DNA from: a virus
UHGV virus genome: UHGV-0007115
Length of the DNA stretch: 43,204 bases
Strand: one strand, 5' to 3'
Shown here: positions 33,001 through 39,000 of the stretch, in pieces
Position numbering within the stretch: position 1 is the first letter of the stretch
Layout of the letters: every line of letters starts with the position of its first letter
Made by a program: the position numbers

Positions 33001-36000
33001 TGCTGAAGGAAAGAAATATTGAAACGGTTCTTGAATTTAGAGCTGAAAATCGATCAGCGAAAACTGCACAGTGATCAAACAGGCCGCTTTCGCGGCCTTG
33101 TTTTTAACGAATGCCACCGCCACCCGGGCGGGAATCCGCAGAACGCCCACCGCAGCGGGAGCCGTCAGCAGCAGTGTCGCTGTCGTGCTGACAACGACCG
33201 GCAAAGGCCTGAGTTGAAGCTACCAGAGACAACAAAACGAACAGTGCAGCAAATGCTTTTTTCATTGTGAAATTTCCATCTATAAGCCACCTCAATGTGG
33301 CGTCAATGAGTGTAGCACTGACTTTTGTTTCGTCCATAAAAAACTACTATGCAGGCTTTTTGGATTTGTACGAATAATCCCACGGATAAACATTTCTACT
33401 AAGTGGAGCTGTATTAGTTCGTTCATGAAATAATTTTGTGAAATTCAATACGGAATCCATCCAAACTTTTGCGTTAGCTTTGGTGTGTGCGGGCGGGTCC
33501 CAATAAGCTAGTAAGGCTGCATCTCTTATTTCATTGACTGCATATATGAGATATGCGTTACTGGTTGGTTTTGGCCTGTAATTTCCTTGTTCATCAATCA
33601 ATCCATATGACCACTCATCCCAACACTGTTCAGTACATGAGTATGAATATGATGCATATTCACCAATATTGACATGAACCTTTCTGAGATGGAAGCCTAA
33701 TACTTCGTCTGGTCTTTCAAAAAGAGTATCTTTTCCCAGATCAGGATGATGACCATGACGCCAGTGTTGTTTAAAAGCATCTTTTAGCGAAATCAGAAAG
33801 TCATCAGTTTTAAACTCACCAGTAGGTATAACCTTCCCGCTATACTCACTCAAAAACATCGAATTCCTCTTCCTTCATATGCGTTTCTAATGAGTTAAGC
33901 TGGCGGAAAGATATCTCTTTTGATTCTGCAGATGAGAGCTTTTTTATCCGCTTGATATTCTTTGTGATAGGAATAGACATTGTATGCACATCAGCGGATG
34001 CTCTTGGCTTTGTGCTGATAAAAATATGGCGCAATGCCGCATTTTCACTATTGAACGAGCCAATAGCTGATTTACGTGCTACAACCTTACCAGTAAAAAT
34101 ACGACTCTTGCTACGCTTTGCATGAGTTCCGCTTCTTACCGGACCTCTCATCACGAATCCAAGTTTTGTCATCTTTAATCTCCGGTAAGTTACAGGTATA
34201 AAATAAAAACAGGTTTACCTTTAAGGTAATAGTACGCTATTCACCCCCGGTCTGCAATCTGTACAGAATTATTTAAAGGCACATCCCTGTGCCGCCGCCC
34301 GTCAGAAGAATCCTGCTTTGTCGTTGATGTACTCCGCGTGGGTCTGGATATCACGCAGGCATTTGCTCACACCGACGATGTAGCAGAACATGGTGGTCAG
34401 CTCCGCCGCCGCGCCCGATACATCGTGCCCGTCTTCCTGTAACTGGTTCAGCAGATTCATCAGCAGTGAGTTCTCCGTCAGGCCGAGAACACCAGACGGA
34501 GAATGAATCAGGCTACGGTAGCCGGGCTTCAGCGGGGCGCTGTAGGTTTTGTTCTCTATCTTCATTGCCTGCATCACTGCTGATGCTGTGGCGTTGGCTA
34601 CCTGGTCGGCAACCATCTTTATGCGTTCTTCCTGCGGGAGCGAGTTTTTAATGTAACTTCCGGTGCGGCGGATCTGAGGAAGAACCTCACCTGTAACCCA
34701 TTCAAGAAATCTGAATGCTCTCGTTCCCTCAGTCATTGCCTCTTTGCAACGCAGAATAAGGATGTAGAGACCTGATTCTGAAACGATGGATAGTTCTTGT
34801 ATTCCACCAGGGGTCTGTATTGAATACAGCCCCTTTTTGTTCCAGCCTTTTTTATCAAGTTTTCTCGCTTGTGTAACATCAATATTCAAAGCATTGCACA
34901 CATCTTTGGTGACAAACCAAGGTTCTCCGTCAATCATGAACATACGGATCTGGCAGGATGACTCAAAGGAAAAGATGGAAGGTTTGGTATTCATGGCGAT
35001 CACCTTTGTAGTTAGGTTAATCACCACCGCTGAGACCAATCAGATGGTGGTGAACTGTGCAGAGTTGGTCTTACCGGCTACAAAGGAACCCGGCGCACCT
35101 TTCGGTGCCCCCACACAGCCCACCATAGAATAGGTGCGCTTTACACATAAAAAAACCGCTTATGCGGCATATGTGCCTCTGTAGTAATCCGGGAGACCAA
35201 TCCCGGCACTGGATTTTGCCAGTGCCCGATTACTATGGCACAAGAGGAGTGCGATGTAAATTTACCGCAAAGGTAATGATAAACGCGGAGAAATATTAAA
35301 ATCAACCGCATTTGGTTGATTGCGTTTAACGCTTGATCACCTGAAAGCAAGATATTACCTTTAAGGTAATGTTATTGTGAGGAAAAGCAATGGAAGTTTT
35401 CTGGATAGTTGTTGGTGTTGTTACGGTGATTATTTACGTTATCAACCAGAACAGGACTAAGGTCTCTGATCGCACAGTCGTTAATCATCGCAAAACGATA
35501 AAGACCGAAGATGGAGAAATAACGATTAATCGTACACAGGTGATAGACCACACCTCCACTCAGTTTCAAAAAACTGGAGGTAATGCGCCGGATATTTCTG
35601 TACATCCTGCTTATGATATATCGGTAATCCAGACATATTATAAACAGCAGGAGTCAGCAAAAGAGAGGGCGCTGATTCAGCCAAAGCCATTTACAGCAGA
35701 GCTTCCACCTGGAGTGTCAACGCGTCCGGCATATCATGACAGATTCCCAGGTGATGACATATCGTCTCAGTTACCTAAAAAAGCTCCTCAGGTAGTATCT
35801 GAGCCAGCAAGAATACCTTCTGTATCGCCATCACAAGAAGAATCAGCTAACAGAGTTTCAAGTGGTAGTAAGCAGTGTTTGCGATGCAGAATAAACCTTC
35901 CATATGAAAAATTCAGGAAATCGTCAAAAAATCCAGATGGATTGACTAAGTGGTGTGCAAGGTGTCTCGATGGCCCAAAGAATACACGCCATATGAAGTG

Positions 36001-39000
36001 GTGCCCAATTTGTAATGTCCGCAGAAAACGCACCAGCTTTTACCCTAATAATCAAAATGCGGACGGCTTAATGGCATGGTGCAAAACGTGCTGGGACGAG
36101 CACAAAGCGAAACGATAGGCCGCTCTTGCGGCCTTTTCTTTATGTGGTTTGTTTTCGTAATTGTTCGGCACAATAGTCGAGATGTGTTTGCAGATCCTGC
36201 ATAGACATCTGTGAGCTGGTGACGTAGTTAATCAGTGCAGTCAGTTCGGCAAGTGGGCCATCGACATTAAATCCATCCTTATCGAGATCCCGGAGTAATT
36301 TCATCAAGTGCGATCCCTCCACTAGTGATCTGACGCCTCCCGGCGTGTGAATCCTTTCGGTAAATCCGTCTTCCAGTGGATAGTGATACTGCTGCATCTT
36401 ATCTTCTCCATGCAATAACTGTATATTTATACAGTATCAAATAATTTGTTTGCTATCCAGCACGTTTTGCAAATTACCTGAAAGGTAATATCTATTCGTA
36501 TTCACAGTCTTTCTATCCATATGTGGTTTTTCAGGTAATAGAATAACCAGATATGCGGCGCAACGGGTGCTGCGACTATCTGGAGATTTAACATGACGGT
36601 CTCAACCGAAGTTGACCACAACGAATACACCGGTAACGGCGCTACGACATCATTTCCGTATACCTTCCGTATTTTCAAAAAATCCGACTTGGTTGTTCAG
36701 GTGTCTGACCTGAACGGGAGCGTAACAGAATTGGTTCTGGATACCGGTTATACGGTAACTGGGGCGGGCACTTATAGTGGCGGTTCTGTTGTTCTTCCGT
36801 CGCCGCTTGCTGCTGGATGGCGAATTACGATAGATCGTGTGCTTGATGTAGTGCAGGAGACAGACCTTCGCAATCAGGGAAAGTTTTTCCCCGAAGTGCA
36901 TGAAGATGCCTTTGACTACCTGACGATGCTGATCCAGCAATGTTTTGGGTGGTTCAGACGTGCATTGATGAAACCATCTTTGCTTGCAAAATATTACGAT
37001 GCAAAGCAAAACAGAATTTCTAACCTTGCAGATCCATCACTTGAGCAGGACGCTGTAAATAATCGCTCAATGCGTAATTATGTCGATGCTGCAATCGCCG
37101 GGGTTGTTGGTGGTTTTGGTTGGTTTATTCAGTATGGTTCTGGAGCAGTATACCGAACGTTCCAGGATAAGATGAGAGACACCGTTAGTGTTCGCGATTT
37201 TGGGGCAAAAGGCGATGGTATAACAGATGATACATCTGCATTGATCCTGGCTGCAGAATATGCACGAGAATCATCCAGAACATTACGAGCGGAAGGTAAT
37301 TTTATTATTACGGAGACATTAAATCTTCGTAATGTCAGCCTCGAAATGACCAATGCTGTTTTTACCATATCCCACTCAGGAATAGGGGTATTGCTTGGCG
37401 GGAATGCATCAAACCCTAACAACCCAAGACAAAACTTCGGAACGATTATCAGAAATTCTGGTATTTCATCTGAAACGACACCGGATATTCGTATTATCGG
37501 GGCAAAAGGGCAGCATATTAACATTGAGCGTTGCGACTACTTACAGTTATATGCAAATTATAATGCTTCGGTGGCATCGACGGATTATTCAATAGCATAC
37601 TCAACCTTTAACCTGAAAAAGGTCGATACAATTCATTTTCTTGGAGTTGAGAAAGGATGGATAAATGAAAACTATTTTTATCTGAATCGTACGAATAATA
37701 TCATTTTCGCTGATAATCCATATCATCATAACCACAATAAGTTTTATGGTGGAACTATGGAGGGGGCAGGTAAAATTGATATTCAAAGAGGTGATAACAA
37801 TTACTTCTACGGGTTTCGTTTTGAACGATATCCATCATCCATAACTAACCAACAGTTGATAATTAACTTTGGTGAATATACGTGGAATAACTCAATTGAG
37901 GCTTCATGGTTAAGTTCTCCTTACTATACAAATGAACCATACAATCCATCACCTTACACTTATGTAGAGGTAACTGATAATGGCAAGGGGAATGCAGTAT
38001 TTCATGTTCAGGAAAATATATCCGATGAAGTAACATTGTTTTCTTTAAATGCTAACACCCCATTTATATCCAGTGCCAACAATGGAGAAGTTGGTGTATT
38101 AGCATATCAAACAGATGTAGATGGTTTATATAATATCCGTCACCTGGTTTCTTCTAAGTTTGCTTTTATGCGGAATTTTGGGTTGTTATGGGAATCTGGA
38201 GATGTACCAGTAAGAAATGGTGATATGTTTACATTCTCAGCAGATACGGCATCGTTTCGCATTTACCTGTATGCATTAGATGGAGATGGGAATGTCATAA
38301 CTTCACAAACAGAAGCAATAACTTCTTCTATGCAATGGGATTCATCTAACCATAGATATGCTACTGTTGCTAACATTTCTTCCATTAAGATCAGGATTAA
38401 TAATGAAGGGGTTCCAGTTAGTGCAATTCGTTTAGCTGTGTATTCTGGTGGTAATGTAGCGAATACTGCATTTTCATGGCTATGCTTAACTGGTAGATAT
38501 TACAAAAATAGCACATCCTTGCCAAGGAAAAGAAAAGATAACTTCACCTTAAAACAAGGAAAAGCAATTACTTATTATAGTGATACTGATATTAGTATGG
38601 CTAACATTGGTTCAGGAATTACCTGTTATAAAACCGATTTATCTGAAATCAAAATTAATCTTGTAAGGGGCAGGTATGTAGTGAAATCAATTTCAGGCAG
38701 TGAAATATATGTATACCAAGGAACAGCCACTTATTACCCTCCATTCAGTGATGTCAAATTGGTATATACGGATGGGGTTGAAAATAAATTATTAGATGTG
38801 CAAAACATCTCTTCAGGAAAGATTACTCTTGCAGATACAGTACCATCAGCTATATCTGCAGGTGATTTTGTAGATGTTATTGTTACAAAGACGAAATCTA
38901 TTTTATGAAGTGTTTATTTATCCTTATGTTAAAGGAGCGATAATGGATATAACGCCTTTCCTTCATGCGTTTTGTGCTGTGGCTGCTCAGGTACTGATTG

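What the first reader, a model, noticed from the sequence alone, without database searches (positions are those of the whole stretch)
34302..36397. Antirepressor C-terminal domain duplicated as a free-standing gene
The C-terminal roughly 70 residues of the Bro-N protein and the 85-aa ORF at 36140-36397 are clearly homologous by direct alignment (shared LxxLLxxLxxDGxxVxGxxAELTxxxxY and DxQTHxxY blocks). A detached copy of an antirepressor effector domain could act as a decoy, a partner or a regulator of the full-length protein.
Basis: seen in the sequence. Interest (0 to 1): 0.5.

Follow-up and report, generated by a model that had tools for sequence, protein, structure and literature searches.

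The report
Two antirepressors sharing one repressor-binding module
The small gene is not a spare copy: it is this phage family's known SOS-triggered antirepressor (Ant of Salmonella phage SPC32H), and the larger Bro-N protein is a second, RNA-controlled antirepressor that carries an old, diverged copy of the same module, so the finding is real but mostly already explained.

Summary
Residues 149-222 of the Bro-N protein align without gaps to residues 2-75 of the 85-aa ORF (42% identity, E=8e-20, z about 30 against shuffles).

The 85-aa ORF is 88% identical to the crystallised antirepressor Ant of Salmonella phage SPC32H (PDB 5D50). It sits in the same slot next to the tailspike gene, has a near-consensus LexA box over its putative promoter, and the window also encodes the cognate repressor Rep (6621-7205). 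It is an autonomous, SOS-controlled antirepressor, not a decoy.

The Bro-N protein is a second antirepressor. Its C-terminal Ant-like domain (Ant') is an ancient paralogue of Ant, with third codon positions randomised. In related E. coli prophages the same Ant' sequence is fused to Bro-N, AntA, ORF6N or P22-Ant-type N-terminal domains. In the five related loci scanned it always follows isrK plus a C4 antisense RNA, whose loop pairs with the gene's ribosome-binding site and covaries with it in four specificity types. This matches the P1/P7 immI design.

A near-identical protein, phage ZX5 ORF4, lowers lysogeny when overexpressed. Binding of Ant' to Rep is inferred, not shown.

Verdict: new member of known kinds, with modest interest.

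The parts
36140..36397 (-). ant: free-standing 85-aa antirepressor, orthologue of SPC32H Ant
   Evidence: 88% identity to PDB 5d50_E 'Anti-repressor protein', E=1.3e-47. Same position beside the tailspike gene as SPC32H_020 ant. dN/dS 0.053 against SPC32H. Matches PHROG 450.
36417..36436 (-). LexA box TACTGTATAAATATACAGTT, 18 of 20 matches to my recollection of the E. coli consensus, ending 20 nt upstream of the ant ATG
   Evidence: Perfect CTGT-N8-ACAG core at 36419-36434, read. The equivalent box TACTGTATGTTTATACAGT lies upstream of SPC32H ant.
36412..36440 (-). Putative ant promoter (TTGATA, 17 nt, TATTGC) with the LexA box filling the spacer; GGAG ribosome-binding site at 36406-36409
   Evidence: Read from the sequence. 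The consensus scanner did not call it, so it stays putative.
36117..36134 (.). GC-rich hairpin between the convergent ant and the 242-aa ORF; likely a bidirectional terminator
   Evidence: Terminator-like site AGGCCGCTCTTGCGGCCT followed by a T run; also visible after the ant stop codon.
34302..34994 (-). Second antirepressor gene, 230 aa: Bro-N domain, disordered linker, Ant-like domain (Ant')
   Evidence: 81% identical overall to phage ZX5 ORF4 'anti-repressor' and 100% identical from about residue 106 to the end.
34677..34949 (-). Bro-N domain (residues 16-106)
   Evidence: Pfam PF02498, E=1.8e-13, 51.4 bits against a cut-off of 25.6. The AF2 model is confident here, and Foldseek finds the SKI/Dachshund, CpGV Orf22-N and Mbp1 folds.
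34320..34550 (-). Ant-like (Ant') domain (residues 149-225)
   Evidence: phmmer against PDB 5d50_E, E=9.1e-14. The domain-only AF2 model's only confident PDB matches are 5d50_G and 5d50_H: prob 1.00, TM 0.60-0.76, rmsd 2.5-3.3 A. PHROG 450 matches residues 147-228.
35043..35130 (-). C4 antisense RNA gene
   Evidence: Rfam RF01695, 78.6 bits against gathering score 45. Loop CCUUUGUAG and segment AGACCAA are complementary to the leader.
35003..35011 (-). b2 target CUACAAAGG, covering the Shine-Dalgarno sequence of the Bro-N ant gene
   Evidence: Exact 9-nt complement of the C4 loop. It covaries with C4 in four types across six loci.
35033..35039 (-). a2 target UUGGUCU in the leader
   Evidence: Exact complement of C4 AGACCAA; covaries with it (UUGGCGU with ACGCCAA) in other loci.
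35149..35225 (-). isrK-type sRNA carrying the a1/b1 mimic sites (UUGGUCU, CUACAGAGG) and its own terminator
   Evidence: Rfam RF01394, 74.7 bits against gathering score 50. Sub-threshold c4-a1b1 hit at 35186-35238, E=5.9e-8. Complementarity shown.
35232..35260 (-). Promoter-like site PisrK (TTTACA, 17 nt, TG-CATAGT), placed to start transcription at the isrK 5' end
   Evidence: conserved in five related loci (the 'up' sequences).
35262..35276 (.). Palindrome TTACCGCAAAGGTAA abutting the -35 of PisrK; candidate Rep operator
   Evidence: One of 16 matches to TTACCT-N3-AGGTAA, where 1.04 are expected. The same motif clusters in the rep-cro intergenic region here and in SPC32H. The operator assignment is an inference.
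36474..36488 (.). Palindrome TTACCTGAAAGGTAA between the ant LexA box and the tailspike start; candidate Rep operator
   Evidence: conserved at the same place in SPC32H (site 20013).
6621..7205 (-). rep: 194-aa repressor, the presumed target of both antirepressors
   Evidence: phmmer against PDB 5d50_A 'Repressor', E=4e-42, and against 5d4z_A (C-terminal domain), E=4e-20. 42% identical to SPC32H Rep. 98.5-100% identical in E. coli phiV10-like phages.
7261..7323 (.). Two palindromes in the rep-cro intergenic region; candidate operators
   Evidence: the SPC32H rep-cro region has three.

Best explanation
The window is an epsilon15/phiV10-like (Uetakevirus-like) temperate E. coli phage with a two-part immunity system. 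Its repressor Rep (6621-7205) can be switched off by two antirepressors that share one homologous effector module but respond to different signals.

1. The 85-aa Ant (36140-36397) is the orthologue of SPC32H Ant. LexA sits on a near-consensus box over its putative promoter. DNA damage removes LexA, Ant is made, and an Ant tetramer binds the C-terminal domains of two Rep dimers. The Rep tetramer comes apart and leaves the operators, so the prophage is induced.

2. The 230-aa Bro-N protein (34302-34994) carries an ancient paralogue of that module (Ant') at its C-terminus, after a disordered linker. Its gene is the last cistron of an isrK-C4-ant' unit built like the immI region of P1/P7 and the isrK-anrP locus of Gifsy-1. 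The C4 RNA loop pairs with the ribosome-binding site and keeps translation off. IsrK carries mimic sites for C4. The proposed role is release of Rep repression outside the SOS route: on infection of cells whose resident prophage has the same Rep but a different C4 specificity (anti-immunity), or when IsrK levels rise.

What is shown here: the homologies, the regulatory sites and their covariation. What comes from the literature: the Ant-Rep mechanism, and the effect of overexpressing the near-identical ZX5 protein. What is inferred: that Ant' binds this Rep, and the biological role of the second route.
For: Small Ant:
- 88% identical to the crystallised Ant.
- Syntenic with SPC32H ant next to the tailspike gene.
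- LexA box present here and in SPC32H.
- A Rep homologue is in the window.
- Ant and Rep occur in essentially the same set of phage records: 35 with Ant, 37 with a Rep match, of which 36 cover at least 80% of Rep.
- Mechanism of Ant on Rep: PMC9638917 and PMC9986798. LexA control: PMC7380047, plus my recollection of Kim & Ryu 2013.

Ant' domain:
- E=9e-14 to 5d50_E. The domain model's only confident PDB hits are the 5D50 Ant chains.
- The same Ant' sequence (6-10 synonymous and 0-1 non-synonymous differences) is joined to Bro-N, AntA, ORF6N or 'Ant' N-terminal domains at one fixed slot downstream of small ant in phiV10-like prophages. In TL-2011b it is also joined to a P22-type Ant behind arc and sar.
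- Rep is 98.5-100% conserved in these phages. The part that stays constant is therefore the part expected to match Rep.
- The Klebsiella relative has the same pair, with both modules and Rep diverged in parallel.
- ZX5 ORF4 is 100% identical across the linker and Ant', and ZX5 Rep is 100% identical to the window's Rep. Overexpressing ORF4 lowered lysogens from 1e9 to 1e6 and cut rep mRNA by 75% (PMC9782041).

RNA control:
- isrK and C4 score above the Rfam gathering thresholds, and both RNAs are found upstream of the second ant gene in all five related loci scanned.
- The C4 loop is a 9-nt exact complement of the Shine-Dalgarno region.
- C4, leader and IsrK covary three ways, in four specificity types. 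There is also a c4-a1b1 hit.
- The Gifsy-1 precedent is in PMC4825925.
Against: - No binding data exist for Ant' and Rep. Ant' is only 37-42% identical to Ant, so its partner or specificity could differ.
- The AF2 models of the C-terminal domain are of moderate confidence (pLDDT 60-80). The interface residues could not be checked because the primary structure paper is not held.
- The second antirepressor is dispensable. It is frameshifted in phiV10 and split by a resistance island in E. coli E-1246.
- The ZX5 experiment used a GST fusion at 500-1500-fold mRNA excess and shows phenotype, not mechanism.
- The role of the N-terminal Bro-N domain is unexplained.
- Assigning the TTACCT-N3-AGGTAA palindromes to Rep is inference only.
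Confidence: 0.72

Rival explanations
1. One reading: the small protein is a detached copy of the effector domain that acts as a decoy, competitor or regulator of the full-length Bro-N antirepressor.
For: The two share a homologous domain and lie 1.1 kb apart on the same strand.
Against: - The small protein is 88% identical to a protein shown to inactivate Rep on its own.
- All 12 Salmonella relatives in the collection show the small protein but no second Ant-like copy in the tblastn search.
- It has its own LexA-controlled promoter.
- The divergence is ancient, not a recent duplication.
Confidence: 0.04
2. The Ant' domain of the Bro-N protein does not target this phage's Rep. It either binds a different repressor, such as that of a co-resident prophage (cross-talk as with the Gifsy antirepressors), or serves only as an oligomerisation module for a Bro-N DNA-binding protein with another job.
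For: - Only 37-42% identity to Ant.
- Ant is a tetramer, so part of the conserved surface may be for self-association.
- Bro-N is a DNA-binding-type fold.
- Trans-acting antirepressors are known (PMC3121763, listed; PMC7380047).
- The gene is dispensable.
Against: - In every context examined, Ant' sits in an epsilon15-like prophage beside small ant.
- It stays constant while the N-terminal domains are swapped, and Rep is constant in the same phages.
- It diverges in step with Rep in the Klebsiella and Enterobacter relatives.
- ZX5 ORF4 overexpression shifts that phage away from lysogeny.
Confidence: 0.17
3. Partner model: Ant and the Ant' domain form mixed tetramers. The Bro-N protein would then tune or localise the SOS-induced Ant, for example by tethering it to DNA, rather than acting as an independent switch.
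For: The domains are homologous. Ant works as a homotetramer. The residues invariant in both paralogues include many hydrophobic positions that could form a shared oligomer interface.
Against: - There is no evidence for mixed oligomers.
- The two genes have separate and different control circuits.
- 60% sequence divergence commonly prevents mixing of paralogues.
- The Salmonella relatives function without a second copy detected.
Confidence: 0.08
4. The similarity is chance or compositional, or the small ORF is not a real gene.
For: None beyond its small size.
Against: E=8e-20 and z about 30 against shuffles. dN/dS is 0.053. A crystal structure exists for the orthologue. The gene is present in 529 complete E. 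coli genomes.
Confidence: 0.005

Closest known systems
Rep-Ant antirepression system of Salmonella phage SPC32H (Kim & Ryu 2013, J Virol 87:11775; Kim et al. 2016, PNAS 113:E2480; PDB 5D50 and 5D4Z)
   Same: The small ORF is 88% identical to Ant. It has the same length, the same slot divergent from the tailspike gene and the same LexA box. A Rep homologue with the same two-domain layout is present.
   Different: Rep is only 42% identical. SPC32H has no second Ant-like copy detected and no isrK or C4. The window adds a whole second antirepressor unit.
Phage vB_EcoP_ZX5 ORF4 'anti-repressor' (PMC9782041)
   Same: 81% identical overall and 100% identical across the linker and Ant' domain. ZX5 Rep is identical to the window's Rep. 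Overexpression reduces lysogeny.
   Different: The Bro-N domain is a different variant. That paper described only the Bro-N domain. It counted three lysogeny proteins and did not mention the small Ant, which its GenBank record labels hypothetical.
immI region of phages P1 and P7 (c4 antisense RNA, icd, ant; Citron & Schuster 1990, cited from my own knowledge)
   Same: A C4 RNA (Rfam RF01695) lies upstream of an antirepressor gene. Its a'/b' segments pair with a2/b2 at the ribosome-binding site and with a1/b1 mimic sites upstream. Several specificity types exist on top of an identical main repressor.
   Different: The b2 site here lies on the antirepressor's own ribosome-binding site, with no separate icd-like ORF evident. 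The antirepressor protein and the repressor it presumably targets (Rep rather than C1) belong to other families. The phage is a podovirus.
isrK-orf45-anrP locus of Gifsy-1 (PMC4825925)
   Same: An IsrK sRNA with its own terminator, a downstream processed RNA, then an antirepressor-like gene that is translationally silent by default.
   Different: In Gifsy-1, IsrK activates translation through orf45 coupling, and the output is AntQ expression. No orf45 equivalent was established here, and the target is presumed to be Rep.
immI of P22 (mnt, arc, sar, ant, next to tailspike gene 9)
   Same: An antirepressor locus placed just before the tailspike gene. The relative TL-2011b even has arc, sar and a P22-type Ant N-terminus fused to the same Ant' module.
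   Different: The window itself has no arc, mnt or sar. By my recollection of Kim & Ryu 2013, this phage family's Rep is not cleaved on RecA activation, so SOS input needs the small Ant.
Small LexA-controlled antirepressors Tum (phage 186) and GfoA/GfhA (Gifsy phages; PMC3121763)
   Same: The same logic: LexA represses a small protein that inactivates a non-cleavable repressor.
   Different: No sequence relationship was detected here. The Ant family is small and separate: 55 clusters at 50% identity among 1.84 billion proteins.

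Membership tests
SPC32H-type Ant (small LexA-controlled antirepressor) | Full-length sequence homology to the crystallised Ant (PDB 5D50 chains E-H) | tested here: met
   phmmer E=1.3e-47, residues 2-85 against 3-86, 88% identity.
SPC32H-type Ant (small LexA-controlled antirepressor) | Free-standing gene of about 86 aa, divergent from the tailspike gene | tested here: met
   85 aa at 36140-36397(-); the tailspike-like gene starts at 36593(+). Same layout in SPC32H, phiV10, TL-2011b, ZX5 and the Klebsiella prophage.
SPC32H-type Ant (small LexA-controlled antirepressor) | LexA box overlapping the ant promoter | tested here: met
   TACTGTATAAATATACAGTT at 36417-36436. A homologous box lies upstream of SPC32H ant. 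LexA binding itself was not tested.
SPC32H-type Ant (small LexA-controlled antirepressor) | Cognate Rep encoded by the same phage | tested here: met
   6621-7205(-) against 5d50_A, E=4e-42, and against the C-terminal Ant-binding domain 5d4z_A, E=4e-20.
SPC32H-type Ant (small LexA-controlled antirepressor) | Tetramer that binds two Rep dimers and releases Rep from DNA | not testable with these tools
   Known for SPC32H (PMC9638917).
Ant-like domain (applied to the Bro-N protein's C-terminus) | Significant sequence homology to Ant | tested here: met
   E=9.1e-14 to 5d50_E; E=8e-20 to the resident Ant; PHROG 450 E=3e-37.
Ant-like domain (applied to the Bro-N protein's C-terminus) | Same fold as Ant | tested here: met
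   The domain-only AF2 model (pLDDT 71.5) matches 5d50_G and 5d50_H: prob 1.00, TM 0.60-0.76, rmsd 2.5-3.3 A. The next hits have E>4. Model confidence is moderate.
Ant-like domain (applied to the Bro-N protein's C-terminus) | Binds and inactivates Rep | not testable with these tools
   Indirect support only: the ZX5 ORF4 overexpression phenotype, and a constant Ant' with a constant Rep under swapped N-terminal domains.
Bro-N domain proteins (Pfam PF02498) | Match above the Pfam gathering score | tested here: met
   51.4 bits against 25.6, residues 16-106. Fold matches to the SKI/Dachshund, Orf22-N and Mbp1 type.
C4 antisense RNA / P1-type immI | Covariance-model match above the Rfam gathering score, located upstream of an antirepressor gene | tested here: met
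   RF01695, 78.6 bits against 45, at 35043-35130 and 49 nt upstream of the ATG. Present in five related loci.
C4 antisense RNA / P1-type immI | a'/b' segments complementary to a2/b2 at the ribosome-binding site and to a1/b1 upstream, with compensatory variation between specificity types | tested here: met
   CCUUUGUAG pairs with CUACAAAGG on the Shine-Dalgarno sequence, and AGACCAA pairs with UUGGUCU. Four covarying types occur in six loci. c4-a1b1 hit at E=5.9e-8, below the gathering score.
C4 antisense RNA / P1-type immI | C4 represses antirepressor synthesis in vivo and sets immunity specificity | not testable with these tools
   Needs reporter and superinfection experiments.
IsrK sRNA (Rfam RF01394) | Match above the gathering score, with its own promoter and terminator, upstream of an antirepressor-like gene | tested here: met
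   74.7 bits against 50. Promoter-like site at 35232-35260 and terminator-like site at 35155-35168.

The most novel reading that the evidence does not exclude
E. coli phiV10-like prophages are widespread: small ant is in 529 and the Ant' module in 469 of 5426 complete genomes. They share an almost identical Rep but carry at least four isrK/C4 specificities, and they swap N-terminal domains on a constant Rep-binding Ant' module.

The most novel reading is that this is a P1/P7-style second immunity layer in a podovirus. It would decide which otherwise homoimmune phage can superinfect or induce which lysogen. The SOS-driven small Ant and the RNA-gated Ant' fusion would be two inputs converging on one Rep surface. 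They might also mix in hetero-tetramers, and the interchangeable Bro-N, AntA and ORF6N domains might add a second activity such as DNA tethering.
Probability: 0.35. Interest if true: 0.5.

Novelty: new member of a known kind. Interest (0 to 1): 0.3.

Why it matters
It corrects the annotation of a common E. coli prophage family. The gene labelled 'hypothetical protein' beside the tailspike gene is the SOS-responsive antirepressor. The 'Bro-N domain protein' owes its antirepressor activity most likely to an unannotated C-terminal domain that has no Pfam or NCBIfam model, although an orthologue has been crystallised.

It also explains why the ZX5 study saw an antirepressor phenotype for a Bro-N protein, and shows that the study did not mention the phage's primary SOS antirepressor.

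The system offers a compact natural case of one effector module wired to two or three different control circuits: LexA, C4/IsrK RNA, and Arc/sar. That is useful for studying how induction signals are integrated and how immunity specificity diversifies without changing the repressor. None of this overturns current understanding.

Tried and rejected
- The two primary SPC32H papers could not be read, either by DOI or by PMC id. The Ant-Rep interface residues could therefore not be mapped onto Ant'. I relied on secondary descriptions and on my own recollection of the abstracts, marked as such.
- Pfam, NCBIfam and PADLOC have no model for the Ant module. I treated the weak DUF724 and Tad2/DAP-like PDB hits as noise.
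- The Foldseek search with the full-length AF2 model returned only Bro-N-type folds and no 5D50 hit, because the N-terminal domain dominates and the C-terminus had low confidence. A domain-only model resolved this.
I repeated the search with window sequences only.
- The MAFFT alignment of the isrK-C4-leader regions put the variable loops out of register. I did not run column-based pair counting and used per-locus exact-complement searches instead.
- The one-mismatch LexA-like match at 35103 lies inside C4 and has a GC-rich spacer, so I rejected it as a LexA site.
- I rejected the TTG start at 36415 for ant because it lies inside the promoter and LexA box, and the TTG start at 35039 for the Bro-N gene because it abuts the end of C4.
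- Genome-wide co-occurrence of ant and Ant' in E. coli could not be counted exactly, because only sampled rows are returned. Every context I inspected had the two genes adjacent.

Full report
**What the window is.**
The region of the finding matches E. coli phages TL-2011b, EC.W1-9, phiV10, ZX5 and phiv142-3 at 91-98% nucleotide identity, and matches Salmonella epsilon15-like phages more weakly. The window is therefore an epsilon15/phiV10-like (Uetakevirus-like) temperate podovirus or prophage of E. coli. The finding lies in the variable stretch between the last large virion/injection protein gene (28832-32221) and the tailspike-like gene (36593-38908).

**Check of the observation.**
Both ORFs exist on the minus strand.
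- BLASTP aligns Bro-N protein residues 149-222 to small-ORF residues 2-75 without gaps: 31/74 identical, E=8e-20.
- The Smith-Waterman score is 161. Across 2000 shuffles the mean was 26.5, SD 4.4 and maximum 63, so z is about 30.
- The N-terminal part is a Pfam Bro-N domain above the gathering threshold.

**Identity of the small ORF.**
A search of PDB sequences gives one hit: 5D50 chain E, 'Anti-repressor protein', 86 aa, E=1.3e-47, covering the whole protein. It is 88% identical to the ant gene of Salmonella phage SPC32H. The supporting points are:
- In SPC32H, ant occupies exactly this position, divergent from the tailspike gene.
- Upstream of the window's ATG there is a GGAG ribosome-binding site and the sequence TACTGTATAAATATACAGTT. 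Its core is a perfect CTGT-N8-ACAG with an AT-rich spacer, matching 18 of 20 positions of the E. coli LexA consensus as I recall it.
- SPC32H has the equivalent box in the equivalent place.
- A GC-rich hairpin follows the stop codon.
- Against SPC32H the gene has dN/dS = 0.053 with saturated synonymous sites.
- It is present at 90% identity or more in 529 of 5426 complete E. coli genomes, always annotated 'hypothetical protein' in the rows shown.
- The window also encodes the partner. ORF 6621-7205(-) matches the 5D50 repressor chain (E=4e-42) and the separately crystallised C-terminal domain 5D4Z (E=4e-20). It is 42% identical to SPC32H Rep.
- In the phage collection the records with Ant (35) and those with Rep (36 covering at least 80% of it) are essentially the same set.

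**What is known about SPC32H Ant.**
The two primary papers are not in the library, so I rely on papers that describe them.
- Rep's C-terminal tetramerisation domain is also the Ant-binding domain (PMC9986798).
- On LexA self-cleavage an antirepressor is made that inhibits the repressor by protein-protein contact; Kim & Ryu 2013 is cited for this (PMC7380047).
- My own recollection of the Kim & Ryu 2013 abstract agrees: Rep is not cleaved, Ant is LexA-repressed, and a point mutation in the LexA box makes SPC32N lytic.

The small protein is therefore a complete, autonomous antirepressor and not an accessory of the Bro-N protein.

**The Bro-N protein.**
Its C-terminal 80 residues also match 5d50_E (E=9.1e-14) and PHROG 450, the family of the free-standing protein.
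- AlphaFold2 on the full-length protein gives a confident Bro-N domain, a disordered segment at residues 123-156 and a helical C-terminal domain of moderate confidence.
- Foldseek with that model finds only Bro-N/KilA-N-type folds: SKI/Dachshund, CpGV Orf22-N and Mbp1.
- A model of the C-terminal domain alone (pLDDT 71.5) has the Ant chains of 5D50 as its only confident PDB matches: prob 1.00, TM 0.60-0.76, rmsd 2.5-3.3 A. All other hits have E>4.

The protein is thus a Bro-N domain joined by a flexible linker to an Ant-like domain, which I call Ant'.

**Direction and age of the relationship.**
- At the DNA level the aligned segments are 46% identical, and only 27% at third codon positions, which is random.
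- In a rough neighbour-joining tree the fused modules form clades separate from all free-standing enterobacterial Ants.
- The family is small. It has 55 clusters at 50% identity among 1.84 billion representatives, most of them 80-95 aa and free-standing.
- The longer members carry AntA, Bro-N, Rha or ORF6N N-terminal domains.
- The 12 Salmonella records show only the small Ant in the tblastn search. At least 17 of the 35 phage records, from E. coli and Klebsiella, have two or three Ant modules.

The free-standing gene is the general form, the fusion is an accessory, and the split between them is ancient. 'Duplicated as a free-standing gene' has the polarity wrong.

**What stays constant and what varies.**
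- The Ant' coding segment occurs at 90% nucleotide identity or more in 469 of 5426 complete E. coli genomes, under genes annotated BRO-N, ORF6N, AntA/AntB or 'phage antirepressor Ant'.
- In three such genomes the gene sits in the same slot of a phiV10-like prophage, just downstream of small ant and the tailspike gene.
- Between these copies the Ant' segment shows 6-10 synonymous and 0-1 non-synonymous differences.
- TL-2011b has a third copy: the same Ant' on a 314-aa 'anti-repressor Ant', behind an Arc-like repressor and a sar RNA, as in P22 immI.
- Rep is 98.5-100% identical across the E. coli phages.
- A Klebsiella relative has the same trio, with Rep 45%, Ant 63% and Ant' about 55% identical to the window's. 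Enterobacter phage Tyrion is intermediate, with Rep 78% and Ant' about 79%.

A constant C-terminal module under swapped N-terminal domains, tracking a constant Rep, is what one expects if Ant' is the part that recognises Rep.

**Control of the Bro-N gene.**
- Rfam finds isrK (35149-35225, 74.7 bits) and C4 antisense RNA (35043-35130, 78.6 bits) directly upstream on the same strand. A sub-threshold 'a1,b1 targets of C4' match overlaps isrK.
- A promoter-like site (TTTACA, 17 nt, TG-CATAGT) is placed to start transcription at the isrK 5' end, and isrK ends in a terminator-like hairpin.
- The C4 loop CCUUUGUAG is the exact complement of CUACAAAGG, which covers the Shine-Dalgarno sequence 8-16 nt before ATG 34994.
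- C4 AGACCAA is complementary to UUGGUCU both in the leader and in the IsrK loop. IsrK also carries CUACAGAGG.
- Both RNAs precede the second antirepressor gene in all five related loci scanned, whatever its N-terminal domain, and are absent from SPC32H.
- Across six loci the three partners change together in four combinations:

| Locus | C4 loop / b target | C4 segment / a target |
|---|---|---|
| window | CCUUUGUAG / CUACAAAGG | AGACCAA / UUGGUCU |
| phiV10, TL-2011b | CCUUUUAG / CUAAAAGG | ACGCCAA / UUGGCGU |
| GN04204 | CCUACUAG / CUAGUAG | ACGCCAA / UUGGCGU |
| AMSHJX01, strain 439 | CCACUUAG / CUAAGUGG | AGACCAA / UUGGUCU |

This is the a/b-site logic of P1/P7 immI (from my own knowledge: Citron & Schuster 1990). 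It is also the layout of the Gifsy-1 isrK-orf45-anrP locus, where the downstream antirepressor-like gene is transcribed but translationally silent until IsrK acts (PMC4825925).

**Experimental support for the second antirepressor.**
Phage vB_EcoP_ZX5 has an identical Rep. Its ORF4 is 81% identical to the window's protein overall and 100% identical from about residue 106 to the end. Overexpressing ORF4 lowered the lysogen titre from 1e9 to 1e6 and rep mRNA by 75% (PMC9782041). That paper described only the Bro-N domain and listed three lysogeny proteins. The small Ant is 'hypothetical protein' in the ZX5 record.

**Most likely mechanism.**
One repressor is switched off by two antirepressors with a common Rep-binding module and different inputs.
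- Shown here: the homologies, the LexA box, the RNA genes, the complementarity and its covariation, and the conservation patterns.
- Taken from the literature: the Ant-Rep mechanism, LexA control, and the ZX5 phenotype.
- Inferred: that Ant' binds this Rep. Also inferred is the role of the C4-gated copy, either as an anti-immunity function toward lysogens with the same Rep but another C4 type, or as an IsrK-triggered route to induction that does not need SOS.

Points against or left open:
- There are no binding data for Ant', and it is only about 40% identical to Ant.
- The second copy is dispensable. It is frameshifted in phiV10 and interrupted in E. coli E-1246.
- The function of the N-terminal domain is unknown.
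- Mixed Ant/Ant' oligomers cannot be excluded.

**Comparison with what is known, and verdict.**
- The small gene is a member of the SPC32H Ant family by every feature that could be tested here.
- The Bro-N protein is a member of the Bro-N family, carries an Ant-like domain by sequence and predicted fold, and belongs to an antirepressor type with a published phenotype.
- Its control unit is a member of the C4/isrK RNA families.
- What I did not find stated in the papers I could search is that the two proteins share the Rep-Ant effector module, and that phiV10-like prophages combine LexA, C4/IsrK and sometimes Arc/sar circuits on that one module.

This is a useful annotation and systems-level point, not a new kind of system. 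I rate it as a new member of a known kind, with interest 0.3.

Noticed in passing
window 136, 6487, 6549, 7261, 7309, 7646, 9609, 9671, 16764, 34215, 35262, 35355, 36474 (15-nt sites; weaker ones at 7470, 13552, 39574): The palindrome TTACCT-N3-AGGTAA occurs 16 times at two mismatches or fewer, where 1.04 are expected. The better matches lie almost entirely in intergenic regions. These include both sides of rep, the region upstream of int, the site next to the isrK promoter, and the region between ant and the tailspike gene. SPC32H has the same motif at the corresponding places. It is probably the Rep operator, which would imply a wide regulon, but I could not confirm this from the literature.
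   Followed up: partly
L006 (E. coli E-1246, NZ_CP025573.1, 3096949-3109816): The same prophage is present, 100% identical over both ant segments. Its Bro-N antirepressor gene is split by a resistance island of about 12 kb carrying ISEcp1-blaCTX-M-15, IS26, aac(3)-IIe, Tn3 remnants and pemIK.
   Followed up: partly
L001 (TL-2011b) 1769-2953, and sar RNA at 1940-2007: TL-2011b carries a third antirepressor (gp42, 314 aa) behind an Arc-like repressor and a sar antisense RNA, as in P22 immI. Its C-terminal roughly 70 residues are identical to the Ant' domain of the Bro-N protein.
   Followed up: partly
L003 (phiV10) 4571-5250: The phiV10 Bro-N antirepressor gene is frameshifted inside the Ant-like domain. 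tblastn gives two pieces in different frames, and the record annotates it as 194 aa plus 29 aa.
   Followed up: partly
window 33347-34172 (-): A two-gene unit lies downstream of the Bro-N gene: a 108-aa ORF (PHROG 5933) overlapping a 170-aa protein. The larger protein has a weak YafO-toxin Pfam match (19.7 bits, below the cut-off) and is annotated as a YafO-family toxin in RefSeq relatives. A TTACCT-N3-AGGTAA palindrome (34215) precedes the unit. There are no PADLOC hits.
   Followed up: partly
window 35390-36118 (+): A 242-aa ORF lies between the two ant genes on the opposite strand. It has an N-terminal hydrophobic segment and C-terminal CxxC repeats resembling endonuclease VII, Lar or HNH zinc fingers (PHROG 6762, function unknown). 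It is marked only as a misc_feature in TL-2011b.
   Followed up: no
window 32223-33074 (+): A low-GC (0.39) gene encodes a 283-aa protein with a signal-peptide-like N-terminus (PHROG 6118, function unknown). It looks like a moron inserted after the last injection-protein gene.
   Followed up: no
window 16365-16441 (-): A tRNA-Arg (anticodon TCT) gene, at the same relative position as the tRNA-Arg of SPC32H.
   Followed up: no
L009 (ZX5) 2955-3068: The ZX5 record annotates a 38-aa 'ash family protein' in the stretch just upstream of its antirepressor gene, where the related loci carry isrK and C4. I did not scan ZX5 for these RNAs. If they are there, the annotated ORF is probably an RNA gene rather than a protein gene.
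   Followed up: no
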